A DNA stretch of 32,000 bases from contig OZ246420.1 in assembly GCA_965231145.1 (NCBI GenBank), forward strand, positions 270,001-302,000, read 5' to 3'. Shown here in pieces: positions 2-23,496 of the stretch (its first letter is position 1; each line of letters opens with the position of its first letter). The notes under the pieces were generated by a model. That model had not been told where the DNA came from, ran no database searches, and was given only the letters and a program-made list of their open reading frames with translations. The stretch is from Candidatus Saccharimonadota bacterium. GTDB taxonomy: Bacteria > Patescibacteriota > Gracilibacteria > Absconditabacterales > Absconditicoccaceae. A program made the translations under genes and the position numbers.

Positions 2-2650
2 TTAAATCTCAATGGTACTGCCAATACAAGTGTAGTGACGATACAGAACACTCTGCCAGCAAGCTATACAAAAGCTGCGTGGGTAAAATTTGGTACAACC
101 AATAATGGCTCATATAGTATTTTATCAAATGGAACAACACCTTCTTCAAGTCCAGATTTTTTTTGGGTCTCCACTGGCACATATGGATGATCAGCTATCC
201 TGGGTCTCAAGGCTGGTCCTATAACGGCTGGTAATAATGCAGTGTGGAGTACAGGAGCATTTCCTACAAATACTTGGACGCATGTCGCAGTTACTTTCGA
301 TGGTTCTACTAAACAGTACAGACTCTATCAAAGTGGTGTGTTAGTCGGCCTGGCTACCGGTACTTCTTCGCATGCAAGTACTGCTCAGGCTATTGGAGCT
401 TATGCGACTACTCCTTCTGCAAATACCTTTAATTGGACAGGACAGTTAGACGATGTTCAGTTGTGGGATAGTGTATTAACAGAGGCTCAGATAGGAGAGG
501 TTATGAATCAAAATAATGGCGATGGTGTCACTCCTGCTGTTCCTGATTTCCCTACATCACTAGAAGCTTTTGCATACGATGCCAATGCCGTTTATCTTAC
601 TTGGACTGGGGTGGGAGCTACACCAGTAGTAACAGACTATCAGATAGAGTATAAGATAAACACAGGTTCTACTTGGAACGTATTTTCTGATTCGGTGAGT
701 ACAAGTACGACAGGGCTTGTGACGTGATTGATCAACAATCTTGTCTATGATTTCAGAGTGTCGGCTATCAATGCTAGCGGAACGTGACTTCCAAGCACTG
801 TAGTGTCGTGAACTGCAGTACCCTTACCGGAGCCACAATTTCTTCTTCGTTTTGAAGACACATATGACGATGTTTCGTCTCATGCAAATCACGGTACTGC
901 TACAGGAGCAATAGCAATAGTTACTGATGGAATCCGTGGCAAGGTAGCTCGTTTTATTGGTTCTATAGGTAATTATGTGACTGTTAATGTTCCCTTGGGA
1001 ACGACAGGATTTACCAAGGCGGCATGGATATATATTCCAGTTGGTACAACTATGAGTGCTCGTAATATTATCTCGAATAGCCCGTATGGAGGAAGTAACT
1101 CCAGCTTTCTTTGGGTAGATAGTTCAAAATTACAAGTTGGTCATTTCTCAGGAGCCGCGGCTCCGATCTTTGCTGCTGACCCTGCTAATATGACTTCGGG
1201 ATCCTGGGCGCATGTTGCTGTAACTTATCAGCCAGCATTGAAAAAATATATGCTTTATAGAAATGGAGCGCTTGTTGCCAGTGGCTATTCTATTCAAAAT
1301 CCAAATCCAAGTACAGGAACTATTATCTGAGCATATAATACAACCGCTGTTACATTTTCTGGATTTATGGATGATGTTGAAATGTGGAATAGCGCATTAA
1401 CTCCTGCTCAGATTCAATTAGTCTATGAGGGTAATACGTGAGTTCCGGTAGGCGTACCAGTTGCTCCTGCTAATTTTACTGGTACTACAGCAAGTAGTAA
1501 TAAAGCTACGTTAATCTGGTCGTGAGTGTCAGCTATTTTACCGGTAACTGACTATCAAATAGAGTATAAAATCAGTACCTGATCAACGTGGACGGTCTTT
1601 TCTGATGGAGTAAATACAGGTACAAGTGTCGTTGTTACAGGTCTGACGACCAATCTCTCATATGATTTTAGAGTGGCAGCGGTCAATTCTGCTGGTACTG
1701 GAGCAGTGACAAATGTTGTATCTCTCTCGCCAATTGTTGTTTCTGTGCCTCAGCCTCAATTTCTCCTGGGATTTGAAGGAAATTATGAAGATATGTCTAT
1801 CAATAGAAACAATGGAATAGCGACATGAACGCTTCCCATTATTACCGATGGCACTCGTGGGAAAGTAGTCAATATCAATGGTGTTGTAGGTAATTATGTT
1901 TGATTAAATGCCTCTCTCAATGTTTCGGGATTTACCAAAGCTGCATGGGTATATGTGGTGCCTGGTACGAATGTGGCTGCGCGTAATATATTGTCCAATG
2001 GATCCTACGGAGGAAGTAGCTCCAATTTTCTTGTCTTAGATGCGGGGGTACTGAAGGTAGGTCACTTTTCATGAGCTTCTATTGCATATTATGCGTCAGA
2101 CTCAGTAGCTTTTGGTTCATGACAATGGATACATGTAGCTACTACTTATAATTCAACTACGAAAAAATATATGCTCTATAGAAATGGAGCGCTTATTGCG
2201 AGTGGAACTGCCGTGACTGATCCTTTTGCAAGTACAGGAACTACTGTCGGAGCCTTTAATATAACAGCTGTAACATGGTCTGGATATGTGGATAATGCAG
2301 AAATGTGGGATAGTACTCTTACTCCAACTCAAGTACAGGCTGTGTATGAAGGTAATCTATGAGTGCCCGAAGATGTGCCATATGTGCCGTTAAATTTCTA
2401 TTCTCCTTCGGTAAGTACAGGAGTTGTAAATCTTATATGGTCTTGAGTTACATCTCTATTACCGGTGACTGACTATCAAATAGAGTATAAAATCAGCACC
2501 TGATCAACGTGGACAGTCTTTTCTGATGGAGTAAGTGCCAATACGACATGAGCTGTCACATGATTGATCGATAACCTTTCTTATGATTTTAGAGTGGCTG
2601 CGGTCAACTCTGCATGAACAGGTAGCTATTCAACTGTCGCTACTGCTGCG
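2..2650 (+). repeat. Three tandem coding modules of about 920 nt (about 307 aa), each LamG-like lectin + FN3; the first is truncated by the window edge.
   Basis: PQFLLRFEDTYDD at about 833 and PQFLLGFEGNYED at about 1754 are 921 nt apart. Near-identical DNA ccggt[a/g]actgactatcaaatagagtataaaatcag[t/c]acctgatcaacgtggac occurs at 1541 and 2461. Confidence 0.8.
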
Positions 2651-5600
2651 CCATGATTGTTCATTTTTTATCATATTCTTTCTAATGGTCAGAGTATTTC
2701 AGTGGGATATAACTCGACTCCTGCTCTTTCTTTGAGACAACCATATAACAATCTTGCGTTATGAGGAGGAGATCCTTTTTCGTCGTGATGACTGTTGTGA
2801 CCGCTCATAGAGTCAGGAGTAGAAAGTCCATCTGCTGGATTGGCAAACGCTTTAAGAGCGTATAGCTGAACGTTATCTCGCCCGATAATTATAGGATTGC
2901 ATGGTTTATGAGCGACATATTATTCTGATATAAAAAAGTGAACAGCGCAATATGCGAAAGGTATGGCACAGGCAGCACTGAGTAAGTCTCTTGTAGAAGC
3001 CGCGTGAGGAGTCTATCGTCCTCTTGGTGTGACGATTGAGCATGGAGAGTTTGATGCTCGGGCCTGAAATTTTATGCTGTATGAATCATATTTGGTAGAG
3101 TGGCAAAGAGATTATCAATTTGATATAAACGCACTGATGGGAACAACGGGGGTTGTTTTTCCAATGTTCTTAGATCAGGAACAATCTTCTCGAACATGAT
3201 GAGTTGCTGTAGCGCAGCTTAATGCACATAGAAATAATCCAGGAAAAATATTTCTCGTAGGTCCGAAATATCAATATTCATATGGTAGTGATAATTTGCA
3301 TCTTACTAATACGTGATCGAAATTTCTCGGCGAAATGCTAGCGAAGGTTATGTATAAGGTGGCGATACAGTGACAAACATGGAATCCGCTTATGCCTACT
3401 TCAGTCATAAGAACATGAGGTAATGCTATCCTCGTGAGTTTTAATATCCCAGTTGGAACACTCAATATCGATACGTGATCGGTAGCAGCACGTCAAAATT
3501 ATGGATTTGAATACTATCAGAGCGGAGGTACAGCTACTACAATTAGTGGAGTAAGGCTTTTGAGTTGAAATACTATGGTAGAAATAACGTTGAGTGGGGG
3601 ATTCGATGGAACTGGCCAAAAACTGCGCTATGCGTGGACGTGCTGATTTCCTGTTGTTACAGGTCAATGGGGTCATTGTGCGAATGCAAGCTCATGACTT
3701 TTTGTCGGTGGTAACATTCGTGATAGTGATTCGAGTATTTCTCCATCAGTAGATGGAACGGGACTGCCTTTATATAACTGGCTCGTCACTTTTGATGAAA
3801 GTATCATCACTCCTAGTGTTCCAAATGCGCCTACAAATGTCACAGCAGTTGCGAGTAGCTGACAAGCTATCATTTCATTTAGCTGATCGACCAATAGTGG
3901 TGGTGCAGCTATCACTGAGTATGTAGTTGTTTCCTCTCCATGATCTATTACATTTACGGGAACAGGAAGTCCTATTACGGTAACATGACTGACGAACTGA
4001 GTGAGCTATACGTTCGCAGTAGCAGCGAAGAATTATGTGGGAACAGGAACCTTCAGTAGTGCGTCAAATCCTGTAGTGCCTGCAACAATACCAACCGCAC
4101 CGACGAACGTCGCGGCGACAGCAAGCAGCTGACAAGCAGTGGTGGAATTCAGCGGCTCATCAAGTAGTTGATGGTCTACTATTTTGTATTATATAGCAAC
4201 CTCATCACCGTGAAATATAAGCTTCACCGGAACATGAAGTCCGATCACGGTAACATGATTGACGAACGGAGTCTCATATACCTTCACTGTAGAGGCATAC
4301 AATGCAATAGGAACGTGAGAAATAAGTAGTCCATCAAATGCGGTAGTTCCAGCGACAGTGCCAAATGCGCCGATCAACGTCGCGGCGACAGCAAGTAGCT
4401 GACAAGCAGTGGTAGCATTTAGCGGTTCGACTAATAGTGGTTGATCAGAGATTTTGTATTATGTGGCAACATCAACTCCGTGAAACATATCATTTACGGG
4501 GACTGGAAGTCCCATCACGGTAACGTGACTGACCAATGGAGTGAGTTATACATTCACAGTAGCAGCGGTTAATGCTATTGGTGCCGGAGCAACAGGATTA
4601 TCAAATGCTGTTATTCCTGCAACAGTACCAGGTGCGCCAACAGCTGTAAGTGCAACATCAAGTAGTGGTCAGGCGATTGTCTCATTTACCGCTCCGGCAA
4701 ATAATGGCTGAACTGGAATACTCTATTATATAGCAACCTCATCACCGTGAAATATAAGCTTCACCGGAACATGAAGTCCGATCGCGGTAACGTGATTGAC
4801 GAACGGAGTGAGTTATACATTTACAGTAGAAGCGTATAACGCGGTATGAACAGGAGCGGCAAGTAGCGCATCAAACGCAGTGATACCAGCAACGGTGCCA
4901 ACAGCACCGACGAATGCAACAGCAGTAGCATGAAGCGGACAAGCTATTATTTCATTCAGCTGATCTACCAATAGTGGGGGCTCACAGATTCTTTATTACA
5001 TCGTTACTTCATCACCAGGAAGCATCTCGCTTACGGGAAGTGAAAGCCCGATAACTATTACAGGTTTGACCAATGGCGTGAGTTATACATTTACAGTAAT
5101 AGCGGTCAATGCTATAGGAACATCATCAGCAAGTAGTGCCTCAAATGCAGTAGTTCCTGTGACACTTCCGGGTGCGCCAACAGGGGTGAATGCAACATGA
5201 GGAAATGCACAAGCTACTATTTCATTTACTCCGCCAGCAAGTAATGGAGGCACTGGTATAGTAGAATATATCGTCACATCAAATCCGTGAAACATTATAT
5301 TTACGGGGACTGAAAGTCCCATCACGGTAACGTGATTGACCAATGGAGTGAGTTATACATTTACTGTAGTAGCAAGAAATAGAGTAGGTTCGTGAGATGC
5401 AAGCGCAGTATCAAATGCTGTTATTCCTGCGACTGTCGCAAATGCACCGACGAATGTGGCAGCGACATCGAGCAGCTGACAAGCTATTGTGTCGTTTAGC
5501 TGATCGACTGATAGCGGAGGATCTGCCATCTTGTATTACATTGTAACATCAAGCACAGGAAATATTGTTGTAACATGAGCAGATAGTCCTATTACAGTCG

Positions 5601-8209
5601 CGGGATTGACGAATGGAGTTACATATGCGTTCACTGTAAGTGCTTACAATGCAGTAGGAACAGGAACAGCAAGTAGTGCTTCAAATGACGTCATGCCTAT
5701 TACGGTGCCAACAGCTCCGATCAATGTCTCCGCGACATGAGGTAATCAGCAGGCGACGATCAGATTTACTTGATCGATAAATAACGGTGGAACCTGAATC
5801 TTGTATTATGTGGCAACATCAAACCCAGGAAACATATCATTTACCGGAACATGAAGTCCGATCACGGTAACGTGATTGACTAATGGAGTGAGCTATACAT
5901 TTACCGTCGCTGCAATAAATGGAGCGGGTACGGGAGTATTGAGCAGCTCATCAAATGCTGTAATTCCAGCAACAGTAGCAAACGCACCAACCAATATCAT
6001 AGCAACAGCAAGTAGCTGACAGGCGGTTGTGTCCTTTAGTGGATCGAGTGATGATGGATGATCGACAATCCTTTATTACGTAGCGACATCAAATCCAGGA
6101 AACATTAGTTTTACTGGTACATGAACTCCAATAATTATAGAATGATTGACCAATTGAGTGTCATATACGTTTACGGTAGCTGCAAGAAATGCAGTTGGAA
6201 CCGGAGCGGCGAGTGCTGCGTCAAGCAGCGTGACACCAGTAACGATGCCATGAGTACCATCAAACATCCAGGGAGCAGGAACGCTGGGGGAAGCAATATT
6301 TGATTTTGATGCACCAGTGTATAGCGGAGGATCTGCGTTACTGTATTATACGATTAGATCAAGCACATGACAGCTAGCAAAAACTGGAGTAAATAGTCCA
6401 ATGACACTAACATGACTCACCAATGGAGTAACATATACATTCTTTATCGCAGCAGTAAATGCGCAGTGAGAAGGAACAAGCGGGGCAGTAACATTTACTG
6501 TCACAACTCCAACCACTATTCCGAGTGAGCCTACGAATATCACAGCGATAGCATGAAGTTGATCAGCATTGCTCAGTTTCAGCACCCCGACTGATAATGG
6601 AGGATTACTTATTGATTATTACGCTATTAGATCATCTACAGGTGCTCTCATAAAGACAGGAGCAAATAGCCCAATAAGGATGACATGATTACAGAATGGA
6701 ATAAGTTATGCATTTAGCGTCTCAGCAGTAAATGGAGAGTGAGAAGGTCCTAGCGACACAGTAACGATAGAGCCGATTGCTCTTATTGTAAATGGTGGTA
6801 GCATAAGTGTTATACTATGATCTACAAGTATGATAGCAAATTGGACGACAACTATTAGAGCTTCAACACAAATCCAGTATGGTATTACGACATGATATAC
6901 ATTGCAGAATACGGAAAGAGACGTATCAAATCGTGTGACCTTACATAGTGGGAATATCCAATGATTGCTTACCTGTACAAAGTATAACTACAGAATTATT
7001 GGTTCAGATGATGAAGGATATCGCTATACAGGAACAAATAGCACATTCACCACGCTAGGCTGCCCAAACAATGCGCCAATTCTCACACAAGAAGAAGAGA
7101 TTGTAGAGGTGCCAGTAGGATGAGTGTTTACTATGACATCAACATTGGGAACGACGTTAGAGCTTATTATCCCTGAGGACGTAGTACTTATCATACCAAC
7201 CCTTCTCTTCCAATGAAAACAATTGGAAGCAAGTACCGCAATTGGTTCTCTTGGCAAGCCATCTAGTGAACTTATTCAGGTGTCAGCGCTCTATGATCTC
7301 CAAGCATATAGTGGGGATACAGATCGCATGACGACCTTTGAAACAGGTCTTACGATGACGTTGAGTTATCGTGATCAGGATGTGAGTTGAGTAGATGAAA
7401 GTACATTAAAAATCTACAGTCATGATGGAACAAGCTGGTCAGAACTTGATAACTGTGTGGTAGATACAGTCAATAAGAACGTTACATGTAATACATCACA
7501 TTTCTCAGCATTCTCCATCTTTGGAGTAGCACTAGGAGTAACGCCAAGTTCTCCATCAGTATGAGGAGGTGGTGGATGAGTGTATCTGACGAAGGATGTG
7601 TGTCCAAACGGAGATTACTCACTGAGCTACTATGACAAGACATGTAGTAGTGTATGACTACCAAACATTGAACAATGAATACTTCGCCTCGCGTTGAACA
7701 AATGTACAGCACAAAATGGCGAAGAGCAGCAATCATACTGCTTCAACCGCGCGATCGGCTCTACAACGATGCCTACATTCATGCAGGCACGTTACTACGA
7801 TCAGATCACGAGAGCGCAGCTGTCGAAGATCATGGGAGAGTTTGCAAAGAATATACTCTGAAAGACTCCAGATAAGAGTAAGCAATGTACGTTTACAGGA
7901 GAAGATCCGGACGGATTAGCAGCATATATGATCCAGGCATGTCAGTTAGGACTGATGAATACAAGCAGACCAAATGACATACTGACAAGAGGAGAGTATA
8001 TGACGGTGCTTTCAAGAATGTTATATGGTAAAACGCATGAACAGACGAATGTGGAAAGTGAAGAACATCCATTCTACGAGTATCATATGGAGCAGTTGTA
8101 TAAGGAATGATTGATCAATAGAAAAGAGCCACTAGTGAAAGCACAAAGACTTGTACCATTCTTGACGCTCTACAGACTCGCACAGAAGCTAGAAAAAGAA
8201 TCAAGATAA
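2..8209 (+). CDS. Giant secreted/cell-surface adhesin-like protein, 5'-partial (2,735 aa in window, table 25). Architecture: 3x [LamG/concanavalin-like lectin + FN3], SASA/SGNH-like esterase-like domain, 11 tandem FN3, two further beta-sandwich domains, Gly linker, Cys motif, SLH-like C-terminal repeats.
   Basis: I hand-translated frame 2 codon by codon from 2 to 8209. There is no TAA or TAG until TAA at 8207-8209, and roughly 95 in-frame TGA. The four plus-strand frame-2 ORFs in the supplied track (242, 977, 2171, 7928) all lie in this frame. LamG_3-like motifs are present (LDDVQLWDSVLTEAQI, MDDVEMWNSALTPAQI, VDNAEMWDSTLTPTQV), as are FN3 motifs (TDYQIEYK...TGL..N..YDFRV.A.N..GTG). A terminator follows immediately. 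Confidence 0.85.
2650..3810 (+). other. Domain of the giant protein: putative SASA/DUF303-type (SGNH-like) carbohydrate O-acetylesterase fold.
   Basis: The ordered motifs resemble the SASA family: HILSNGQSISVGY (GQSN-like nucleophile block), GVTIEHGEFDA (QGEsD-like block) and YGSDNLHLTNTGSKFLGEMLA (D..H block). This is motif-level recognition only. Confidence 0.4.
3821..6780 (+). repeat. Array of 11 tandem FN3 domain repeats inside the giant gene, period 267-273 nt (about 90 aa).
   Basis: Repeat starts (P-x-A-P-T-N-V) are at 3821, 4091, 4361, 4628, 4898, 5168, 5438, 5708, 5978, 6248 and 6521. The consensus is ..AP.NV.AT.SSGQA.VSFSGS.NSGGS.ILYY.ATS.PGNISFTGTGSPITVTGLTNGVSYTFTV.A.NA.GTG..S..SN.V.P. 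Confidence 0.9.
7562..8209 (+). other. C-terminal anchoring module of the giant protein: GGGGGG linker, CPNGDYSLSYYDKTC motif, then SLH-like repeats.
   Basis: The translation reads ...HFSAFSIFGV..VGGGGGGVYLTKDVCPNGDYSLSYYDKTC...YCFNRAIGSTTMPTFMQARYYDQITRAQLSKIMGEFAKNILG...AAYMIQACQLGLMNTSRPNDILTRGEYMTVLSRMLYG...EQLYKEGLI. The (a..Gl......itR.e...m..r) pattern resembles S-layer-homology-type wall-binding repeats. Confidence 0.45.
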
Positions 8210-8949: not shown

Positions 8950-8986
8950 ATTATATTGAGAATTTCGAATTCAACATTTCGAATTA
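8950..8986 (-). repeat. Stop-codon-abutting 37-nt conserved motif, copy A (after rlmN).
   Basis: The minus strand reads TAA TTCGAAAT GTTGAA TTCGAAAT TCTCAATATAAT. The TAA is the rlmN stop, and the terminator hairpin follows 6 nt later. Confidence 0.8.
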
Positions 8987-10165: not shown

Positions 10166-10205
10166 AGCCTCTACTATAGTGATTTTGCTCTAAAAAACAA
10201 GCTTG

Positions 10206-11231: not shown

Positions 11232-11305
11232 CAAATATAAAGAAGCAGCTAGATTATACATGATAACATTCTATATGCTATCATCTACTTGCTAACTGCT
11301 ATATG

Positions 11306-13780
11306 CTATTTGGTAATCAGTCCCTTTTCTACTAAGAACTTTGCAAGATCTCCGAAGAGTCTACCTGCAGTATATTCACCGTACTGATTTGTTCTTGGTC
11401 TACGAACGTGGATGACGACAATATATTTCAAATCATCCCTTGTAACCATGCCTACGAATGAACCATCTGTCCATCCATTTCCGTTCATATACTTTCCTTT
11501 GAAGGCAATCTGAGATGTTCCTGTTTTTCCACCTATCGTATAACCTGGGATCCCGTACATTTTTGTAAGCCCTCCATAGACGTCCTGAAAGAGAACTTCT
11601 CTGATTTTCTCACTCGTTTCTGGTTTGATAATCTGGTTTCCAACCTTAGGAGTATTCACAATATATTGCTTCGTCACGGGATCATAAATCTTATCTATGA
11701 TCGTTGGCTTTACGATATATCCGCCATTTACCAGCGCGCTATAACCTGCAGCAATCTGTACTGGTGTCGCAAGCATACCTTGTCCGAACGCATTATTATA
11801 GAATTGAGAAAGCGGGATGTTGTTTGGGCCTTCGATCTTACCCTGTGTTTCACCGGCAAGCTCTATACCTGTCTGCTTACCAAATCCAAACTTATCCATA
11901 AAGTTATAGAATACTTCTTTTCCTATTTTCTGAGCGATTCTTACCATTCCCACGTTACATGAGTAGACTACTGCATTTATCAGCGGATGAAATCCGCCGC
12001 AGTGTTTTTTGTCTGCGTTATTAATAAGCTGAACCACGCCATTTCCAATATCGAGTTTCAACTGATTGTTATCTTGGTAGTAGTCATAAAGACTTACTTC
12101 ATCGCTATCGAGACCAAAGGCCATCGTAAATGGTTTGATGATCGAACCTGGTTCGTATGGCTGCGCAATGTTTTTGTCGATAAATACCTGAGCTCCCATC
12201 TTATTTGCAGCGACATATTTTTGTAGTGATGGATCTTTTCTCTGGTCATATGTTGTCGGTATGATTTTTTCTCCCGAGAGGAAGAAGACTGGAATATCTC
12301 TATAGGTGTCGTCGTTTATAATAGTACTTTCAGTAAGGCTTAATGGCTTCAGTTTATATGCTTCCTGATAGTTGTTTGGATTAAAGGTTGGATAGTTCGC
12401 CGATGCTATGATCTTACCATTGTGAGGATCCATGATGATGGTAGATATTTCGTCAGCGTTGAATATCTTTGTATAGTATTCTTGTAGTTGCTCAAGCTTC
12501 CTCTGGATGAGAGGATCTATCGTAAGATAGACATCACGTCCATCGATAGGCTGTGTGATAGCAATATCATTTGATGCGATTTGTCCGAGGAGCGGCGTAG
12601 AAAGTCATTGTATTTCTCCTGCTTTTCCTTTGAGAAGCTCATCGAAATATTGTTCTATGCCATAGAGAGCATAGCCATCTTTTGCGTAAAACCCCAATAT
12701 GTTTGCTGCGAAGTGATTGTAAGGGTAGTATCTTGTTTCGTATTTTTCCAATCCAAGACCATGCAGTAGGGGAATGCCTTTAACGCAGTTTTCTCCTGCA
12801 TTTTCACACGTGTTTTTCACGTTATAGTTAGCATTGATGAGGTCATTGATCTTTTTCGCGAGCGTAGCATTGAGCCCATCAGCGAGCTTTACGTATCTGT
12901 TTTCCTGTTGGACAAATAAGTTAGAGATCTGTTTTTCTGAATATGCATAACTGTATTTCATGAGGATCGAGTTGATCTCTTTTTTCGCATTGACGACGTT
13001 GATTGCTTTAGGTGGTACGACATAGACGTAGTGTTTGCTTTCGATGCTTACGTATGGCAAATTCATCCCTGAGAGGTCTGCAAGAAACTGATCATTTTCA
13101 AAGTAACCGAGATAGTTTTTTTCCTTCACTCCAATGGAAATCTTATTGTCCAGGGTCGCTTTGATCATGTTCATGGCTTGATCTCCTGAGAAGGCATTGA
13201 TGATTTTCGTCCTTTCCTGGTCGATGATGCTATTTTCTTCGACGATCTGTTGCTGCATAAGATCAATTCCTGTTTGTGACCGATAGTTCTCTCCAATCTC
13301 TTGTGTATAGAAGACCGTCTTTGGAGCAGGGAGGATCTGTAGCTGAGCAAAGCGTTCAATGTTTTCTATACAACCAAGTTTATCTACATCTACTAGTCCA
13401 TTTTTTTCACACAGGTGCGCATAGATAATCGGAGAGAGGATATCTATAACTCTTGGTTTGTCCCAGACAAACTTCGGATCGATAAAGACGTTGTACATTT
13501 CCATGTTTTGGGTGAGAGCGATGGGTTTATTGCTTGCATCAGTAAGATAGATATTTCCTCTCTTCGCTTTGATGTTTGTTTTATTGAAATGCTGTGCAGT
13601 CATCACATCGCTATAGTTTTTCGCCTGTATGATCTGCAGATAGAATAGTCTGATGGTAAGTACAAGAAAAAGAAAAGAAAGGATCCATAAAAGCTGAGCT
13701 TCTCTGGTGATTTTTCTTTTACCAAGACCGAATTTTTCTAGTATCTTATGAGCGAGCTTATTTTTTTTCTCTAATAGCAT
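11306..13780 (-). CDS. Class B penicillin-binding protein (FtsI/PBP2-type peptidoglycan transpeptidase), 824 aa.
   Basis: An N-terminal TM helix (LLWILSFLFLVLTIRLFYL) and RGNIYLTD are present. The transpeptidase motifs are SIIK (SxxK), SCN (SxN) and KTGT. ORFs 12605..13780 and 11306..12433 are in frame and joined through TGA at 12605-12607 (…GEIQ-G-LSTPLLG…DVYLTIDPLIQ). Confidence 0.85.
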
Positions 13781-13897
13781 TTGTGAGCGATTTAGTGATA
13801 TGGTGAAGTTATATGAAAATAGTCGGGGTTTACAAATAATTTCCTCAATAATAGAGGAGTAAAATCAAAAATTATGATCTGATATAATGTATGTTTT

Positions 13898-14094
13898 ACT
13901 CCTGCCGGAGGGGCGTTACTTTTTAGCATATCCCTAAAAAGTAACCAAAAAGGTCTAGCCGATTGTAGCACTCTAATATGTGTAACAATCAAGCATTGAC
14001 TACGAAAGCATTTCGTCCTCACGAACTCAATGCTTTACGACAAACTACTTATCCATACACGACTCCGGAGACGTGGGGTACAATCGGCGGGAGT
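13898..14094. ncRNA. Candidate structured RNA element, copy 1 (unclassified; paralogous to 26208..26398).
   Basis: Closing stem ACTCCTG/CGGGAGT (13898-13904 with 14088-14094). Perfect 12-bp hairpin GTTACTTTTTAG/CTAAAAAGTAAC (13915-13945). 9-bp stem CCGATTGTA/TACAATCGG (13959-67 with 14079-87). Conserved core hairpin AAGCATTGA..ACGAAAgcaTTTCGT..TCAATGCTT (13991-14035). The strand is undetermined; an extended -10 (TGATATAAT at 13880-13888) favours plus. Confidence 0.5.
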
Positions 14095-14108
14095 CTGTAT
14101 GGCATATT

Positions 14109-14165
14109 AAAAAACTCGGTACTTACCGAGCTTATTATATAATAAAAAAATCGGCGGATGCCGAC
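14109..14165 (-). terminator. Two tandem rho-independent terminators after the small membrane protein gene.
   Basis: The minus strand reads gtcggcatccgccgattttttt (14144-14165) and gctcggtaagtaccgagtttttt (14109-14132). Confidence 0.75.
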
Positions 14166-14170
14166 TTTCA

Positions 14171-14569
14171 TTATGCTATAGACTGAACTACGAAGAAGAC
14201 GAGACTTACGAAGAGCCATGCAAGACCGATGAATACGAGTCCGATACCAGACTGTTTCAAGATCTTAAATCCAGCTTCATATTTCTTATCGTCACCAGCT
14301 GCAGTAACCATTTGGAAACCACCCCAGAGAAGCACAATAAGTGCGATAAGTCCGAGCAAACCAAGAAGCCAGTTGATACCGTTCTTGATAGTGAGGATGA
14401 GGCTGTCTCCAGCGAGTCCTCCTTGTGCGCCTGGTACGTCAGGATTGTATGTTGAATTCTGGTTATTAAATCCTCCTGGAGTTGTTGTACTTACTGCTAG
14501 AACATTTCCGATTAGTACAACGCTAGACACAGCACTTGCCACGATAGCATATCCTGTTTTTTTCAGCAT
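14171..14569 (-). CDS. Small secreted membrane protein, T4SS-pilin-like (TrbC/VirB2-type topology), 132 aa.
   Basis: There is an N-terminal signal/TM segment followed by two hydrophobic helices flanking a charged loop: WLLGLLGLIALIVLLWGGFQMVTAAGDDKKYEAGFKILKQSGIGLVFIGLAWLFVSLVFFVV. This is the pattern typical of the small pilin-like proteins common in CPR and Firmicutes. Confidence 0.5.
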   Translation of the reverse strand: MLKKTGYAIVASAVSSVVLIGNVLAVSTTTPGGFNNQNSTYNPDVPGAQGGLAGDSLILTIKNGINWLLGLLGLIALIVLLWGGFQMVTAAGDDKKYEAGFKILKQSGIGLVFIGLAWLFVSLVFFVVQSIA

Positions 14570-14720
14570 AGTAATCTCAAAATTTAAAAGATAAATTTAA
14601 ATGCAATAGTTAGACAAACAATGGATGAATGCAAGGGAAAAACACATTGCAGAGAGCAATGCTGCTTTACTTTTTATTAAAACATATATCCAATATCTTT
14701 TTCTCCGCATTCAGATTGCA

Positions 14721-14856
14721 ATTACACATACAAATGAATAACGTAGTTATATTCCGTGTAACAATTGTGTAGTATGGTATAACATTGTGTAAAAGCGCAT
14801 GTTCTCAATATTACACGACCTTACACAACTTTACACGACCTTACACAATATTGTGG
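14721..14856. promoter_or_regulatory. Array of TTACAC / GTGTAA hexamer repeats in the divergent promoter region (operator- or iteron-like).
   Basis: TTACAC occurs at about 14721, 14811, 14821, 14832 and 14842; the last four are tandem with 10-11 bp spacing. The inverted form GTGTAA occurs at about 14757 and 14787. The palindrome CACAATATTGTG sits at 14844-14855, directly abutting the ATG at 14857. Confidence 0.55.
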
Positions 14857-15252
14857 ATGCAAGAAAAATTTCGTCTTCGAAGTGATCTCAATGAGATATC
14901 ATTAACTGATGCAGAGATGATTGCGTTAACAGATGCATTGGAAAAATATGATACGGTAAAAGCATACCATAGATATCATTACCTTTTCAAAGGATATCAT
15001 GACCTCGCGCATGGCAAAATAGATGATGAGGCATTTTTTACGTTGGGAGATATATCTTCGGATCGTCCTGTGTTTGCAACAGCTCCTGGAGTATCTCTTG
15101 AGGCTCTCTTTTTGATAGAAGAGGATATAGCCCATAGTACGCTCTACATTGTAGAGCAAAGCGCATCTTCTTATTATAACGGAAAGAGCAAAGAAAGAGC
15201 AAAGCTAGAGAAGCTTTTAGCTGAACATAATTCAAAGTTGTTAGTTATCTAA
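14857..15252 (+). CDS. Hypothetical protein, 131 aa (the start is taken at ATG 14857 rather than the track start at 14785).
   Basis: This is an uninterrupted ORF. The upstream 72 nt of the track ORF is the TTACAC repeat array, which is more plausibly regulatory. I recognise no family. Confidence 0.45.
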   Translation: MQEKFRLRSDLNEISLTDAEMIALTDALEKYDTVKAYHRYHYLFKGYHDLAHGKIDDEAFFTLGDISSDRPVFATAPGVSLEALFLIEEDIAHSTLYIVEQSASSYYNGKSKERAKLEKLLAEHNSKLLVI

Positions 15253-15342
15253 TCTTAAAAATCAGAAAGGTTGAATGTTAAATGATAAATACCTTATTGT
15301 ATTTCACATTTAAAATTATTTTTTAGTTTGTAAGTGTATGAG

Positions 15343-16971
15343 ATGTATCGCCCATGAGGATTTCCCGAATTTAATCCACAGCAACAGGCTGTGTTCGATG
15401 CTATAGTAGAGACGCTTAACGATGTTTTCAGACAATATCACTATGAACACATCTGGACTCCAGCAGTAGAGTCTGTAGATATTTTGAAAAAAGGAGGAGA
15501 TATTATTGATAAGCAAGTGTATGGTTTATATGGTCTTGCTCAGGGAGTAGAAGATGTGAAAGACTATGCGCTTCACTTTGATCTTACGATCCCTCTCGCA
15601 AGATATATTCTCGATCATAGGAATGATCTGTCATTTCCATTTCGCAGATACCAGATGCAGCCCGTATGGCGTGGTGAAAGAACGAAAAGAGGAAGATTCA
15701 AAGAATTCCGGCAGTTTGATGTGGACGTAGTCCGGCCTTCGGAAATGAATATTGGAACGTGGTATGACACCGAAACTGTGGCTGTACTTTCGCGCGCGAT
15801 GGAAGCAGTATGTAAAAAGTTTTCTATTACGATCGATTCAGTTTTGAAGATGTCGCATATCGGATTGACGAAGGCGATGCTGGAAAGCTTTGGTGTGAAT
15901 GAGGAGACGAGAGATAAGATTCTTTGATTGCTTGATGGTTACTATAAGATAACGCATGAAGAGTTTACAGAAAAACTCAATGCATTGGCTCCACAAGAGG
16001 TTGCGGCGCTTATCCAAAAAGTTATTGCTACTAAAGATCTCTCGCTTATGGCAGATTATGAACACTATGATGCTATGAGAAATATTTTGACGGGACTCGA
16101 TGAACTCAATATTAACTATGAGTATGATATCTGTATCGTGAGAGGACATAACTACTATAAGTGAATGGTTTGTGAGTGGTTTGATAAGTCAGACATTGCA
16201 CTTGGTTCGCTTGCTGCTGGAGGAAGATATGATAACATCACCGACTTTATCGATCCGAAGCAGTCATTTAGTGGAGTGGGAACGAGCCTTGGAAGATTTG
16301 TCTATCTCGCGATTGAGAAGATTGGTCTTATACCTCCATGTGAGTCATATCTGTTTGTGAACTTTGAAGATACAAACAAAGACATTATCGCGCTTTATGG
16401 AAAATTCCTTTCTCAGTGAAAAGTATGCGAGATGTATCCAACAGCTGCGAAGCTTGCAAAACAGTTTGAATATGCTGATAAAAAAGGGCTTTCACATGTT
16501 GTTATCTTAGGAGGATCAGAGAAAGAAAAACATGTATTCAAATTAAAAAACTTACAAATAGGAGAAGAAAGAGAATATGCTATGGTCGACTGTTATGGAG
16601 CAATAGTTTTTTGTAATCATAAGGTTCTGCTCGTAAAAAATCATCAAGGAGGACGGGGGTTTCCAAAGTGAAAATGAGAGAAAGGGGAAAGTATTGATGA
16701 AAGTATTCTCAGAGAGTTAGAGGAAGAAACAGGTATTAATAAAGTAAAATTACTTTCGAGTCATCTCTCTCAGACAAGTTATTTTTATGATAATGGAGAG
16801 TTGATATTCAAAACTATTCAGTATAAAGTTTTTGAAACACCTAATGATAAAGTCTCTCTACAAAAAGAAGAACTTGCTGAATATAAGTGGGCTACTCGTG
16901 AAGAGGCATTAAAACTTCTGCCGCAAGATATGCATCATCTTATTGATCCAGTAAATAATTATTTTCTTTAA
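15343..16971 (+). CDS. hisS: Histidyl-tRNA synthetase fused to a C-terminal Nudix hydrolase domain, 542 aa.
   Basis: Class II aaRS/HisRS motifs are present: FRRYQMQPVWRGERTKRGRFKEFRQFDVDV, HNYYK-G-MVCEWF, AAGGRYD, plus an anticodon-binding domain (VVILGGSEKEK). The same frame continues without a stop into a perfect Nudix box G-KGEKG-E-SIDESIL-RELEEETGI. Five track ORFs share one frame and are joined by TGA=Gly. The N-terminus MYRPGGFPEF is recovered through TGA at 15355. Confidence 0.85.
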
Positions 16972-17006
16972 AAAAGAACCGCTCGGACATGCCGTGCGGT
17001 TTTTTA
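16972..17006. terminator. Bidirectional terminator between hisS-nudix and the lipoprotein gene.
   Basis: The sequence aaaaagAACCGCtCGGacatgCCGtGCGGTTtttt forms a stem flanked by an A-run and a T-run. Confidence 0.7.
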
Positions 17007-17027
17007 AATTACATTGTTGTACGTCTG

Positions 17028-17525
17028 TTAGTTGAGGTAGGCTGTCATGCTGGCTGCTTTTTTGCCGCTTCCTTTGAGAGGAACGACACTAGCAATGAGC
17101 CAGCCGGGACAAGCGGTAGTTATCTTATTCGTTGGAATAGTAACCGAATAGGAATTGTTCTTGATAACTACCGAGATAGGAGTCATAAGTCTATCGGCAT
17201 GAGTGGCTTCGTCGTAGAGGTTTATCTCTACGTTTACATCCGTATAGCCTGCAGGCAGCTGATCCCATTTGAGCGTCAGCTGTGCTGAGTTGCTTACAGA
17301 GAACGAACCTTTGTCCAGCCAGTTTATATTGTTTATCGTGCCCGTCAGATGCAGGAAGCTGTCTGTTGGGTTAGTGGGAGTCGTGGTAGGTGTTGTCACT
17401 CCCGGATTGGTATTTGGAGGATTAACTACCACTGTGCTGTCTTTTATCTTGTATTTGTCGTTCTTGTTGCAGCTTATTGTTATTGCTGCTATCGCTATTG
17501 CGATGAATGTGATTGTCTGTCTCAT
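17028..17525 (-). CDS. Putative lipoprotein, 165 aa.
   Basis: The signal peptide ends in a lipobox-like AITISC. A Pro/Thr-rich linker follows (NPPNTNPGVTTPTTTPTNPT). The gene ends at TAA. Confidence 0.6.
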   Translation of the reverse strand: MRQTITFIAIAIAAITISCNKNDKYKIKDSTVVVNPPNTNPGVTTPTTTPTNPTDSFLHLTGTINNINWLDKGSFSVSNSAQLTLKWDQLPAGYTDVNVEINLYDEATHADRLMTPISVVIKNNSYSVTIPTNKITTACPGWLIASVVPLKGSGKKAASMTAYLN

Positions 17526-17549
17526 AACTTGTTCTTTTGTGTTTGCGCT

Positions 17550-17966
17550 TTAGTTTGTAATAATAATGTATGCGTTATATTGTTTGCTGTTTTTTGCGGC
17601 TGAAGCATATGCTTTGAACCATCCTTTTTTAGGGCAATCAGATGATACCCACAGTAACTGATGTGAATTTTCTTCGCCATACTTTGATTGATACTTATAG
17701 CCACCAAGCGAGTCTGAGATTCGTACATATAAGGTTGCTGTTGAAGTTGTTTGCTTCCAAGAAGCTTCAATATTTAGTCCTTGAGCCGAATCTATAACAA
17801 GCGTGTCAGTTTTGGTGCCATCTAATAACCGATGATTGATGCTTACTTTGAAATTGAGTAATGAATCATTAGGTGGTGAGTTCGTCACGGTAATTGTTTC
17901 CGTTTTTGTGCACGAAGCGACAGCAAATGCTATGCTTATAAGTGCTAACTTAATGAGTGTTTTCAT
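17550..17966 (-). CDS. Putative lipoprotein, 138 aa, a distant paralog of the neighbouring lipoprotein.
   Basis: MKTLIKLALISIAFAVASC is a signal peptide plus lipobox. It shares a C-terminal CP..GW motif with 17028..17525 (CPKKGWF versus CPGWLI). The ATG at 17966 is preferred over the TTG track start at 18008. Confidence 0.55.
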   Translation of the reverse strand: MKTLIKLALISIAFAVASCTKTETITVTNSPPNDSLLNFKVSINHRLLDGTKTDTLVIDSAQGLNIEASWKQTTSTATLYVRISDSLGGYKYQSKYGEENSHQLLWVSSDCPKKGWFKAYASAAKNSKQYNAYIIITN

Positions 17967-18103
17967 AGTTTTTTTGTTTAGGCCTGTATGATACTTCTCA
18001 AAGCTCAAAAGTCAATCCTTTTTGTTGAAACCATGTGAGGAAACTGTCAGAAGAAAGGCTTGTAGTTGCCGAAGGTCTCATTACAACTACTAAACAAATA
18101 TTT

Positions 18104-18162
18104 GATACAGATGACAGATACAGATACTGTATGTAAGGGTATCAGTATCTTGTATCAGTATC
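18104..18162. promoter_or_regulatory. GATAC x3 / GTATC x4 opposed repeat array upstream of dnaB.
   Basis: GATAC occurs at 18104, 18117 and 18123. GTATC occurs at 18139, 18145, 18152 and 18158. The tandem 13-mer GTATCAGTATCTT is present twice. The array ends 26 nt before the dnaB ATG. Confidence 0.5.
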
Positions 18163-18187
18163 TTTTAGTAGTAAGTAAGTTAATTAG

Positions 18188-19534
18188 ATGGTAAGTCTCG
18201 AAGATATCAAACTGCCTCCTCATAATATAGATGCGGAAAAGTGATTGCTCTGTTGTATTCTTCTCGATAATGAGGTGATGTTTTTGTGTGACAGCATGCA
18301 CTTATTGCCGGAAGATTTCTACCAGAAAGAACACCAGATGATCTTTGAAGGTATGAAAGATCTCTGGGGGAGTCGTAAGACGATAGATATAATTACTCTC
18401 GGAGATGCTCTAGTAAAAAAGCAATATTTTGATCTTGTCGGGGGAAATGATTACCTTTATGAGATATCAACGGCAGTCATGACGACTGCAGTGGGTGGAG
18501 AGTACTCAAGGATGGTAAAGGAGAAGGCGATCCTCAGGAATGTACTTAAGGTTGCACAATGAATTATCGGAGATGTCTATGAGCATAGGGAAACGATAGA
18601 GATTATTGATACTATTCAGAAGCGTATCTTCGAGTTGACACAGTTTGACATGTCAGATTCGACAAAGCACATTAAAGAGATCTTGGAGCAGCGTGTAGAA
18701 GAGCATATGGAGCTGGTGGATAACCCAGAAAAGCTCAATGAACATAAGATTATGTCCGGGTACTTTAAGCTCGATGACTATACAAGTGGCTTTAAACCTG
18801 GAGAGTTGGTTATCCTTGCAGCCCGTCCTTCTATGGGTAAAACGGCTTTTGCCCTCAATCTTTTGCTCAATGCAGCACTCAAACATGGTAAATCGGTGGC
18901 ATTTTTTTCTCTGGAAATGGGTAGTGAGCAGATTGTAGACAGATTGTTATCAGCGGTTTCGGAGATTCATATGGCTAGAATGCAGAAGGGACAGCTCAAT
19001 GAGTCTGACTTTGCAGAGCTGGGAGAGGCTATGGAAAAGCTAGGTGATACCAGTATTTTCATCGATGATCAAGGTGGTGTTACTATCCCGGCTCTTAAGT
19101 CTAAGCTTAGAAAGCTGAAAATCGAACGTGGACGCCTCGATATGGTAGTTATCGACTACCTTCAGCTCATGAGCGGCGGCAATAGTAAGTTCGCCGGAAA
19201 CAGAGTTCAGGAGATTTCCGAGATTTCTCGTGGTCTAAAAGAGCTTGCAAGGGAGCTAAAAATCCCTATTATTGCACTCTCCCAGCTTTCACGTAATGTG
19301 GAAGCACGTGTGGACAAAAAACCACAACTTTCCGACCTCAGAGAGTCTGGGTCGATCGAACAAGATGCCGATACGGTGATCATGCTCTATAGAGACGAGT
19401 ACTATGACCCGGATACGGATAGAAAATGAACGGCAGATGTCATCATCAGGAAGAACAGAAATGGTCAGGTGGGTGAGGTTGAGCTCTCGTTCAGAGGAGA
19501 AATACAAAAATTTTATGACGTTCAAAAATCTTAA
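18188..19534 (+). CDS. dnaB: Replicative DNA helicase DnaB, 448 aa.
   Basis: The N-terminus reads LPPHNIDAEK-G-LLCCILLD. Walker A is AARPSMGKTAF. Also present are DYLQLM, SQLSR and RESGSIEQDAD, and the C-terminus DRK-G-TADVIIRKNRNGQVGEVELSF. Three in-frame TGA fall at 18242, 18560 and 19427. Confidence 0.9.
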
Positions 19535-23459: not shown

Positions 23460-23496
23460 ATTATATTGAGAATTTCGCATTTAGAATTTCGAACTA
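23460..23496 (-). repeat. Stop-codon-abutting 37-nt conserved motif, copy C (after gyrA).
   Basis: The minus strand reads TAG TTCGAAAT TCTAAA TGCGAAAT TCTCAATATAAT. The length and register match copies A and B, and the TAG is the gyrA stop. Confidence 0.75.

What the first reader, a model, noticed from the sequence alone, without database searches (positions are those of the whole stretch)
15343..16971. HisRS fused in frame to a complete Nudix hydrolase (Ap4A-hydrolase-like)
The anticodon-binding domain of HisRS (…VVILGGSEKEKHVFKLKNLQIGEEREYAM) runs without any stop into a Nudix domain of about 125 aa (16582-16971). That domain has a canonical box, GFPK-G-K-G-EKGESIDESILRELEEETGI. The FPKG context resembles the Ap4A/NUDT2-type subfamily. 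The junction lies inside a single track ORF (16432..16671), so the fusion does not depend on the code-25 interpretation. Aminoacyl-tRNA synthetases produce diadenosine polyphosphates as side products. A covalently attached Np4N hydrolase would be a neat way to remove or tune that alarmone in a genome too small for separate regulation. I do not know of this fusion being described.
Basis: partly seen in the sequence, partly recalled or inferred. Interest (0 to 1): 0.7.

Follow-up and report, generated by a model that had tools for sequence, protein, structure and literature searches.

The report
HisRS fused to Ap4A-type Nudix hydrolase
In this TGA-recoded candidate-phylum bacterium, the enzyme that loads histidine onto tRNA carries at its end a complete, conserved hydrolase of the kind that destroys diadenosine tetraphosphate (a by-product such enzymes make); the fusion is real, recurs in related uncultured bacteria, and I found no paper describing it.

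Summary
Window 15343-16971 (+) is one 542-aa ORF, interrupted only by six TGA codons and ended by TAA plus a hairpin terminator. Pfam finds tRNA-synt_His, HGTP_anticodon and NUDIX in a row, with no linker. TGA=Gly is shown directly. The junction lies in a TGA-free stretch and is reproduced at 100% identity in contigs from two separate sequencing runs. A 72%-identical, gapless homolog from another MAG has it too. About 30 of 195 sampled SR1/Absconditabacteria HisRS are fused, and none outside that lineage were found. Fused clades are interleaved with unfused ones that share the same gene order. One pair has HisRS halves 81% identical but Nudix halves only 30% identical, so the module was swapped or re-acquired. 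Both halves are under equal purifying selection, and the REx2EE core is invariant. The closest solved homologs are Ap4A/ApnA hydrolases (aq_158, CT771, Ndx1), and the ApnA-type X-loop Tyr is present. In other SR1 genomes the same Nudix is fused to a HIT domain or follows serS. Most likely this is a bifunctional HisRS that hydrolyses the Np4N it makes. That function is inferred, not tested. A rival role on RNA or tRNA 5' ends remains open. It is a new variant of known kinds, of moderate-to-high interest.

The parts
15343..16971 (+). hisS-nudix fusion gene: 542 codons plus the TAA stop, read with TGA=Gly (code 25)
   Evidence: 100% identical in contigs from two separate sequencing runs. Gapless 72%-identical homolog in L002.
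15358..16290 (+). Class II HisRS catalytic core (Pfam tRNA-synt_His, aa 6-316). It contains motif 2 (aa 100-130, nt 15640-15732), the HisA signature VRGHNYYKG (nt 16138-16164) and the HisB signature AAGGRYD (nt 16213-16233). Motif 3 (nt 16273-16305) spans the 3' boundary of the Pfam match.
   Evidence: R110, E112, R118, R267, Y271, Y272 and Y296 are invariant in alignment A1.
16384..16578 (+). Anticodon-binding domain (Pfam HGTP_anticodon, aa 348-412)
   Evidence: Aligns to the end of solved HisRS chains 3net and 6nhi.
16540..16611 (+). Linker-less junction: ...KLKNLQIGEEREYAM | VDCYGAIVF...; no stop codon of any kind in this stretch
   Evidence: Same boundary in all fused homologs. The AF2 model of the fused homolog P0044 (not the window protein) shows a continuous strand at its residues 410-426 across the junction.
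16582..16968 (+). Nudix hydrolase domain (aa 414-542; Pfam NUDIX match aa 420-530 = nt 16600-16932)
   Evidence: pN against L002 is 0.17, versus 0.19 for the HisRS half.
16669..16737 (+). Nudix box GX5EX7REUXEEXGU (aa 443-465). G443 and G445 are TGA codons. The catalytic R457, E458, E461 and E462 lie at nt 16711-16728.
   Evidence: R, E, E, E are invariant in 33 of 33 aligned domains.
16777..16791 (+). X-loop SYFYD, with Tyr at +15 and +17 after the Nudix box (ApnA-hydrolase specificity marker)
   Evidence: this column is Tyr in 27 of 33 and Phe in 4 of 33. The marker is defined in PMC5389931.
16973..17005 (.). Hairpin terminator (A-tract / GC stem / U-tract) between the fusion gene and the convergent minus-strand gene that ends at 17028; could act in both directions
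   Evidence: dG -17.8 kcal/mol, z = -4.8, 0 of 200 shuffles fold as well.

Best explanation
This is the cell's working histidyl-tRNA synthetase with a catalytically competent Nudix pyrophosphohydrolase of the Ap4A/ApnA-hydrolase type (aq_158 / CT771 / NUDT2-like) welded directly to the end of its anticodon-binding domain. Shown: one ORF, three intact domains, all catalytic signatures conserved, both halves under equal purifying selection, and recurrence of the architecture in related genomes. Inferred: when uncharged tRNA-His is scarce, the HisRS active site lets histidyl-AMP react with ATP (or another NTP) to give Ap4A/Np4N. The attached Nudix domain then cleaves these asymmetrically to ATP + AMP. 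This keeps the dinucleotide, and possibly Np4-capped RNA derived from it, low, and ties the amount of degrader one-to-one to the amount of producer. I found no evidence for substrate channelling, so the benefit may be stoichiometric co-expression and co-localisation only.
For: - Architecture and integrity.
- The HisRS half aligns end to end with solved HisRS and keeps motif 2, HisA and HisB. No assembly contributes a second hisS among the 80 GTDB loci kept.
- The Nudix half keeps REx2EE in 33 of 33 sequences and the X-loop Tyr or Phe in 31 of 33.
- The best solved homologs are aq_158 Ap4A hydrolase (E 2e-10), CT771 (asymmetric Ap4A hydrolase) and Ndx1.
- The Nudix profile falls in a large family that several sources name bis(5'-nucleosyl)-tetraphosphatase.
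- HisRS is placed with PheRS and LysRS in the 'high' class of Ap4A producers (Goerlich 1982, cited in PMC10148737).
- Selection: window versus L002 gives pN 0.19 (HisRS) and 0.17 (Nudix), with synonymous sites saturated.
- The link is repeatedly re-made. Thirty of 195 SR1 HisRS are fused, in interleaved clades with at least 9 state changes on the tree. P0044 and P0051 have HisRS 81% identical but Nudix only 30% identical, attached at the same boundary.
- Independent genomic links exist between the same Nudix and adenylate or ApnA chemistry. It is fused to a HIT domain 1 kb downstream of hisS in oral SR1 (L042/L049), and it stands alone directly after serS, 3 kb downstream of hisS, in L021/L063.
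Against: - There is no biochemical evidence. Nudix enzymes are notoriously promiscuous, and the nearest homolog aq_158 also removes ppp, pp and many caps from RNA.
- Similarity to characterised Ap4A hydrolases is modest, and no NCBIfam equivalog cut-off is reached.
- Most SR1 genomes, including the closest relatives with the same gene order (L082, L083, L003), have a plain HisRS with no Nudix remnant nearby. The fusion is therefore dispensable.
- The AF2 model gives pTM 0.55, so no defined inter-domain geometry supports channelling.
- Whether the fused genomes lack another Ap4A hydrolase could not be checked.
Confidence: 0.5

Rival explanations
1. The Nudix domain works on RNA 5' ends rather than on free dinucleotides. 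HisRS holds the acceptor end of tRNA-His and recognises G-1 and its 5' phosphate. The attached domain could convert a 5'-triphosphate or an Np4/other cap on tRNA-His (or nearby RNAs) into the 5'-monophosphate that HisRS needs. It could also undo Np4-capping that the synthetase's own adenylate causes on ppp-RNA.
For: The nearest solved homolog aq_158 efficiently removes triphosphates, diphosphates, and m7G, NAD, FAD and Np4 caps, even from base-paired 5' ends (PMC13145063). A synthetase (LysU) can install Np4 caps on ppp-RNA. The HIT partner in L042 also gives a weak DcpS_C (scavenger decapping) match. ApnA hydrolases and decapping Nudix enzymes are evolutionarily close.
Against: The one SR1 tRNA-His gene seen (L024, an unfused genome) is a standard bacterial type with encoded G-1, C73 and CCA. 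RNase P processing of such a gene would already leave a 5' monophosphate (the RNase P step is established knowledge). No tRNA gene lies in the window. RppH and YtkD equivalog scores are far below cut-off. The serS adjacency and the HIT fusion do not point to tRNA-His specifically.
Confidence: 0.17
2. Mechanistically neutral fusion. A general house-cleaning Nudix gene that happened to lie near hisS became fused by loss of a stop codon in a streamlined genome. The two activities are unrelated, and the fusion only secures expression.
For: In some unfused SR1 genomes the homologous Nudix gene lies 1-3 kb downstream of hisS on the same strand, so proximity could have seeded a fusion. The fusion is patchy and dispensable. 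No fixed domain geometry is predicted.
Against: The same boundary carries two very different Nudix modules on nearly identical HisRS (81% versus 30% identity), which implies repeated selection for the combination. The Nudix half is as constrained as the HisRS half. The partners seen elsewhere (a HIT domain, and SerRS as neighbour) all belong to adenylate or ApnA chemistry. In none of the unfused loci examined is the Nudix gene the immediate downstream neighbour of hisS, so a simple stop-codon loss is not a one-step route.
Confidence: 0.25
3. The Nudix domain is a sensor or regulator. It binds Ap4A or another nucleotide and modulates HisRS activity, rather than acting mainly as a hydrolase.
For: Non-enzymatic Nudix domains exist (PMC5389931). 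A predicted continuous strand across the junction, seen in the AF2 model of the fused homolog P0044, could transmit conformational change.
Against: All catalytic Nudix-box residues (R, E, E, E, and E7 in 31 of 33) are conserved. That is expected for an active hydrolase and not required for a mere binder.
Confidence: 0.05
4. Artefact: mis-assembly, a frameshift, or two genes wrongly read through a real stop codon.
For: None found. The only formal weakness is that I had no read-level data.
Against: The junction is in a stretch with no stop of any kind. Contigs from two separate runs are 100% identical to the window. Homologs with the same junction occur in about 30 independent assemblies. TGA=Gly is demonstrated.
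Confidence: 0.01

Closest known systems
Aquifex aeolicus aq_158 (PDB 3I7U/3I7V), Ap4A/Ap5A/Ap6A hydrolase, recently renamed 'Omnivore RNA pyrophosphatase'
   Same: Best solved homolog of the Nudix half (E 2e-10, aligned over about 105 residues). Same size (about 130 aa), same FPKG context before the Nudix box, same Tyr-containing X-loop, and the same IFKT strand.
   Different: aq_158 is a free-standing 134-aa protein. The window's domain is the C-terminal extension of an aminoacyl-tRNA synthetase. Activity is known for aq_158 and unknown here.
Chlamydia trachomatis CT771/NudH and animal NUDT2-type asymmetric Ap4A hydrolases
   Same: Second-best solved homolog (4ilq, E 1.7e-7). 1kt9 (C. elegans) and 5cfi also match. 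Shared GFPKGH-type motif and the conserved X-loop tyrosine that contacts adenine.
   Different: Those are stand-alone enzymes. In the window the His after PKG is Lys (FPKGK), as in its closest relatives, whereas most other SR1 fused domains have FPKGH.
Canonical bacterial HisRS (e.g. Nostoc 3NET, Elizabethkingia 6NHI)
   Same: Residues 3-413 align end to end with 3NET (E 1.2e-49). Motif 2, HisA, HisB, motif 3 and the anticodon-binding domain are conserved. Foldseek finds only HisRS chains for the N-terminal 410 residues.
   Different: No solved HisRS, and none of the non-SR1 HisRS among the top hits of an exhaustive search, carries a C-terminal Nudix domain. The TIGR00442 score (259.9) is just under its cut-off (286.75).
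HIT-Nudix fusion protein of oral SR1 genomes (L042/L049, found here)
   Same: Its Nudix half is homologous to the window's (E 3e-27 against the fused-Nudix profile) and it lies about 1 kb downstream of hisS on the same strand. HIT enzymes also act on ApnA and acyl-adenylates (established knowledge; FHIT and Ap3A).
   Different: The partner is a HIT domain, not a synthetase. HisRS in those genomes is unfused.
Mammalian LysRS-Ap4A-NUDT2 circuit and E. coli LysU/ApaH (own knowledge)
   Same: The same logic of an aaRS as producer and a dedicated hydrolase as terminator of Ap4A/Np4N.
   Different: There the producer and the degrader are separate proteins, and the degrader in E. coli (ApaH) is not a Nudix enzyme. 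Here they are one polypeptide.

Membership tests
Nudix hydrolase superfamily (PF00293) | Nudix box GX5EX7REUXEEXGU with the catalytic REx2EE glutamates | tested here: met
   GKGEKGESIDESILRELEEETGI at aa 443-465. R, E, E, E are invariant in 33 of 33 related domains.
Nudix hydrolase superfamily (PF00293) | Profile match above the curated threshold, and a complete domain of about 130 aa | tested here: met
   60.6 bits against a cut-off of 21.1, profile positions 8-127 of 134. The AF2 model of the fused homolog P0044 has pLDDT 80-93 over this domain.
Ap4A/ApnA hydrolase-type Nudix (NUDT2 / aq_158 / CT771-like) | Closest characterised relatives are ApnA hydrolases | tested here: met
   The top three PDB matches are 3i7u (named Ap4A hydrolase), 4ilq (CT771) and 1vc8 (Ndx1). 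Functions come; Ndx1 as an Ap6A hydrolase is from my own knowledge.
Ap4A/ApnA hydrolase-type Nudix (NUDT2 / aq_158 / CT771-like) | Conserved tyrosine in the X-loop, about 17 residues after the Nudix motif | tested here: met
   Tyr at +15 and +17 in the window. The aligned column is Tyr in 27 of 33 and Phe in 4 of 33. The marker is defined in PMC5389931.
Ap4A/ApnA hydrolase-type Nudix (NUDT2 / aq_158 / CT771-like) | Asymmetric hydrolysis of Ap4A to ATP + AMP | not testable with these tools
   Needs an enzyme assay.
Histidyl-tRNA synthetase (class IIa) | Class II motifs 2 and 3 plus the HisRS-specific HisA (RG.xYY.G) and HisB (GGRYD) signatures | tested here: met
   Motif 2 at aa 100-130, VRGHNYYKG at 266-274, AAGGRYD at 291-297, GVGTSLGR at 311-318. 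These are invariant in alignment A1.
Histidyl-tRNA synthetase (class IIa) | C-terminal HGTP-type anticodon-binding domain | tested here: met
   PF03129, 24.3 bits against a cut-off of 21. Aligns to the end of 3NET and 6NHI.
Histidyl-tRNA synthetase (class IIa) | Equivalog-level profile score (TIGR00442 hisS) | tested here: inconclusive
   259.9 bits against a cut-off of 286.75. It is the best family by far and covers profile positions 3-404 of 406. Divergent CPR sequences commonly fall just short (my inference).
HisZ (ATP-PRT regulatory subunit, a HisRS paralog) | Equivalog score; lacks an anticodon-binding domain | tested here: not met
   TIGR00443 gives 103 bits against a cut-off of 271.65, and an anticodon-binding domain is present.
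RppH / YtkD RNA pyrophosphohydrolases | Equivalog-level profile score | tested here: not met
   YtkD 32.7 against 154.4; RppH 31.5 against 118. This does not exclude RNA 5'-end activity (see aq_158).

The most novel reading that the evidence does not exclude
The fused Nudix domain is a built-in RNA 5'-end deprotection module. HisRS is the one synthetase that reads the 5' end of its tRNA (G-1 and its phosphate). In these lineages it would carry an 'omnivore'-type pyrophosphatase that converts ppp- or Np4-capped tRNA-His (or RNAs capped by the synthetase's own adenylate) to the 5'-monophosphate form. That would be a new kind of substrate-maturation or repair step built into an aminoacyl-tRNA synthetase.
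Probability: 0.12. Interest if true: 0.85.

Novelty: new variant of a known kind. Interest (0 to 1): 0.6.

Why it matters
Whether Ap4A is a true alarmone or a damage by-product of synthetases is still debated. Here nature has joined one of the strongest Ap4A-forming synthetases to an Ap4A-type hydrolase. It has done so repeatedly, with two different Nudix modules and with a HIT-domain alternative in sister lineages. That argues that, at least in these minimal, host-dependent bacteria, synthetase-made Np4N is something to be removed at source. The fusion gives a simple, testable system: compare the wild-type protein, a Nudix-dead mutant and a truncated protein for net Ap4A output and Np4-capping. 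It also adds a new catalytic appendage to the catalogue of aminoacyl-tRNA synthetase architectures. For annotation, such genes are split into fragments or translated with Trp at TGA in most public gene calls.

Tried and rejected
- Assembly or annotation artefact: rejected.
- Internal start at ATG 16582 producing a separate Nudix protein: the Met is not conserved (ATA/Ile in L002, none in other fused proteins). The AGGAG at 16560-16564 lies 17 nt upstream of the ATG, and the purine run encodes IGEERE (read). Not excluded, but not required.
- Simple fission, i.e. unfused relatives having the Nudix as the next gene: rejected for the closest relatives. L001/L003 have NDK downstream. L082 and L083 have small ORFs or DnaB. 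There is no Nudix remnant even at E <= 10.
- Single ancient fusion with purely vertical descent: not sufficient. Mantel r = 0.72 shows overall co-divergence, but P0044 and P0051 (81% versus 30%) show a module swap, and parsimony needs at least 9 changes.
- HisZ paralog: rejected.
- Fusion outside SR1: none among the top 150 of an exhaustive profile search or its long hits.
I used database homologs and the TGA-free 79-aa ORF instead.
- The Foldseek search of the full model returned only HisRS chains, so it gave no structural ranking for the Nudix half.
- The AF2 model was of the homolog P0044, which has Trp at its TGA positions. That probably lowered confidence in the catalytic core.
- A search for a tRNA-His gene in fused loci found none.
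Full report

Yes. The frame that starts at ATG 15343 runs to TAA 16969-16971. It has no TAA or TAG and six in-frame TGA codons, at 15355, 15925, 16162, 16417, 16669 and 16675. Under code 11 it falls into five ORFs plus a short tail.

Read with TGA=Gly it gives a 542-aa protein. Pfam places tRNA-synt_His at aa 6-316, HGTP_anticodon at aa 348-412 and NUDIX at aa 420-530, each above its gathering score. NCBIfam's best family is hisS (TIGR00442) at 259.9 bits, just under its 286.75 cut-off. No Nudix equivalog is reached.

The fusion therefore does not depend on how TGA is read. A strong hairpin with an A-tract and a U-tract follows the stop at 16973-17005 (dG -17.8 kcal/mol, z -4.8). It sits between this gene and the convergent gene that ends at 17028.

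**2. The genetic code**

The whole window is TGA-recoded. One ORF (35..8209) has 96 in-frame TGA codons, and most long ORFs have several.

I took 728 TGA codons in hisS genes of related genomes and looked at the same alignment columns in 12 standard-code HisRS. Gly makes up 61% of those residues, against a background of 8%. Trp does not appear among the eight commonest residues.

In the window's own gene, TGA falls on the invariant Gly of the HisA motif (YYKG, codon 274), on a conserved Gly at codon 359, and on the first Gly of the Nudix box (FPKG, codon 443). This is code 25, which is typical of SR1/Absconditabacteria and Gracilibacteria. Public names on homologs say Absconditabacterales or SR1.

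**3. Could it be an artefact?**

No.
- The TGA-free 79-aa ORF that spans the junction occurs exactly in three contigs.
- Two of them, from separate sequencing runs, are 100% identical to the window. ERR4405439 matches over 5,737 bp that include the whole gene. ERR4405441 matches over 1,386 bp that include the junction.
- A different MAG (L002, JAGOPC010000003.1) encodes a gapless 542-aa homolog, 72% identical, with the same junction.
- P0209 is a fragment of a third relative that carries the anticodon-binding-domain tail plus the Nudix domain.

**4. Both halves look functional**

The HisRS part aligns over residues 3-413 with Nostoc HisRS (3NET, E 1.2e-49). It keeps motif 2, HisA (VRGHNYYKG), HisB (AAGGRYD) and motif 3. 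These residues are invariant in the family alignment. It is not HisZ. Among the 80 GTDB loci kept, no assembly contributes a second hisS.

The Nudix part has a canonical box. R, E, E, E of REx2EE are invariant in 33 of 33 related domains.

Between the window and L002, non-synonymous divergence is the same in the two halves (pN 0.19 versus 0.17), while synonymous sites are saturated (pS 0.72-0.76). The Nudix half is therefore as constrained as the synthetase.

The codon that is Met414 in the window is ATA (Ile) in L002, and there is no Met there in other fused proteins. A separately initiated Nudix protein is therefore not a conserved feature.

**5. What kind of Nudix is it?**

The three best solved homologs are Aquifex aq_158 'AP4A hydrolase' (3I7U, E 2e-10), Chlamydia CT771 (4ILQ) and Thermus Ndx1 (1VC8). 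C. elegans and other Ap4A hydrolases also match.
- aq_158 hydrolyses Ap4A, Ap5A and Ap6A.
- CT771 is an asymmetric Ap4A hydrolase (Barta 2014, cited).
- Ndx1 as an Ap6A hydrolase is from my own knowledge.

A profile of the SR1 domains lands in a very large family of stand-alone proteins of about 140 aa, which several sources label bis(5'-nucleosyl)-tetraphosphatase.

Srouji et al. describe a specificity marker for ApnA hydrolases: a conserved Tyr in the 'X-loop', about 17 residues after the Nudix motif. The window has SYFYD, with Tyr at +15 and +17. That column is Tyr in 27 and Phe in 4 of 33 sequences.

**6. Distribution and history**

Of 195 related HisRS, drawn from GTDB loci translated with code 25 plus database proteins, 30 carry the Nudix domain. 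All fused ones are from the TGA-recoded SR1 lineage.

An exhaustive profile search of 1.84 billion cluster representatives found only five fused 50%-identity clusters. No fused protein from another lineage appeared among the top 150 hits or among the long hits I checked. No solved structure combines the two domains.

On a neighbour-joining HisRS tree the fused clades are interleaved with unfused ones. Parsimony needs at least 9 gains or losses.

The window and L002 are sister to an unfused clade (P0001-P0003). The unfused relatives L082 (P0001) and L083 (P0019) share the window's gene order: RlmN - DHH - PBP - pilin-like - small ORF - hisS - ... - DnaB. They have no trace of a Nudix sequence after hisS. 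In L001/L003 the next gene is ndk.

Distances in the two halves correlate overall (Mantel r = 0.72; 0 of 2000 permutations reach it). One pair breaks this pattern clearly. P0044 and P0051 have HisRS halves 81% identical but Nudix halves only 30% identical, joined at the same boundary. Each type is seen in more than one assembly (P0044, P0046 and P0060 versus P0051 and P0069). The module has therefore been exchanged or re-acquired, which is hard to explain without selection for the combination.

**7. Independent genomic links**

Scanning the flanks of unfused hisS genes with the fused-Nudix profile found the same Nudix in two other arrangements.
- In oral SR1 MAGs (L042, L049) it forms the C-terminal half of a HIT-Nudix protein about 1 kb downstream of hisS. 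Pfam scores are HIT 2.4e-10, DcpS_C 3e-5 and NUDIX 1.4e-16.
- In L021 and L063 it is a stand-alone gene directly after serS, about 3 kb downstream of hisS on the same strand.

HIT enzymes and class II synthetases both deal with adenylates and ApnA (FHIT and seryl-tRNA synthetase).

**8. Mechanism**

Established knowledge: when no tRNA is bound, a synthetase can let its aminoacyl-adenylate react with ATP to give Ap4A. Goerlich et al. classed the Phe, Lys and His enzymes as the high producers (PMC10148737). Nudix enzymes cleave Ap4A asymmetrically to ATP + AMP.

The best-supported reading is therefore a producer-degrader fusion. HisRS makes Np4N as a side reaction, and its own C-terminal domain destroys it. 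This step is inferred, not shown.

The AF2 model of the fused homolog P0044 gives a confident Nudix fold (pLDDT about 80-93) and a continuous β-strand across the junction. Its pTM is only 0.55, so nothing can be said about channelling.

**9. Rivals**

- RNA 5'-end rival (about 0.17). In 2026 aq_158 was shown to strip triphosphates, diphosphates and many caps, including Np4 caps, from RNA 5' ends, even base-paired ones (PMC13145063). LysU can cap ppp-RNA with Np4. HisRS reads the 5' end of its tRNA, so a role on tRNA-His or capped RNA is a genuine alternative. Against it, the only SR1 tRNA-His gene I saw (L024, unfused) is a standard bacterial type with encoded G-1, C73 and CCA.
- Mechanistically neutral fusion (about 0.25). 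This fits the patchy distribution but not the module swap or the equal constraint on both halves.
- Purely regulatory Nudix (about 0.05). Unlikely, given the intact catalytic residues.
- Artefact (about 0.01).

**10. Novelty**

Four full-text searches found no paper that describes a HisRS-Nudix fusion. The architecture is nevertheless present, unremarked, in public protein sets, often with Trp at TGA positions or split into code-11 fragments.

Both parts belong to well-known families. The combination, its recurrence and the module swap are new. I rate it a new variant of a known kind, with interest 0.6.

Noticed in passing
L042 6297-7205 and L049 6297-7205 (oral SR1 MAGs): A 301-aa HIT-Nudix fusion protein (HxHxH motif DHLHFHLIP; Pfam HIT, weak DcpS_C, NUDIX) lies about 1 kb downstream of an unfused hisS. 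Its Nudix half is homologous to the window's.
   Followed up: partly
L063 7185-8936 and L021 6819-8530: A stand-alone homologous Nudix gene (136-146 aa) lies directly after serS (Seryl_tRNA_N + tRNA-synt_2b), about 3 kb downstream of hisS on the same strand. This is a second class II synthetase neighbour for this Nudix family.
   Followed up: partly
P0044 vs P0051 (database proteins; alignment A1): HisRS halves are 81% identical but Nudix halves only 30% identical, joined at the same boundary. The 'short' type (FPKGK/LPKGK, about 127 aa) and the 'long' type (FPKGH, about 140 aa) are each seen in several assemblies.
   Followed up: partly
window 35-8209 (+): Giant ORF of 2725 aa with 96 in-frame TGA codons. 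By eye it is a repeat-rich surface protein with many Ig/FN3-like 'ITVTGLTNGVSYTF' repeats. No domain search was run.
   Followed up: no
window 23494-26016 (-), 11306-13780 (-) versus 35-8209 (+): TGA(Gly) usage is very uneven. An 841-aa ORF that looks like GyrA by eye (not scanned) has 0 TGA, and the 825-aa ORF syntenic with the PBP/transpeptidase genes of L082 and L083 has 1. The giant surface ORF has 96, about 3.5% of its codons. This may reflect expression level or the recent origin of the repeats.
   Followed up: no
L001/L003 7317-7883 (locus L001 coordinates): In the close unfused relative (GCA_041674565.1), a nucleoside-diphosphate kinase gene directly follows hisS at the position where the window has the Nudix domain. 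It is another nucleotide-metabolism neighbour.
   Followed up: no
L024 1171-1247: tRNA-His with encoded G-1, C73 and CCA. A TTAAAT hexamer ends 5 nt before G-1, so transcription could start at or near G-1. This bears on the RNA 5'-end rival, but it is a single, unfused genome.
   Followed up: no
window 8984-19534; L082; L083: The gene order RlmN - DHH/DHHA1 phosphoesterase - PBP - pilin-like (PF18895 in relatives) - small ORF - hisS - small lipoprotein-like ORFs - DnaB is conserved across lineages whose HisRS is only 61-68% identical. The DHH/DHHA1 protein (10206-11261, -) is itself a candidate nucleotide or nanoRNA phosphoesterase.
   Followed up: partly
L084/L085 (Logan ERR4405439, ERR4405441) and proteins P0001-P0120: Public gene calls for this lineage either split the gene at TGA under code 11 (pieces of 178, 78, 84 and 79 aa) or translate TGA as Trp ('MYRPWWFPE', 'FPKWH'). 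The fusion and its Nudix box are therefore obscured in databases.
   Followed up: yes
window 28773-31787 (-): A 1005-aa ORF with 8 TGA codons that looks like the DNA polymerase III alpha subunit (DnaE) by eye. Not scanned.
   Followed up: no
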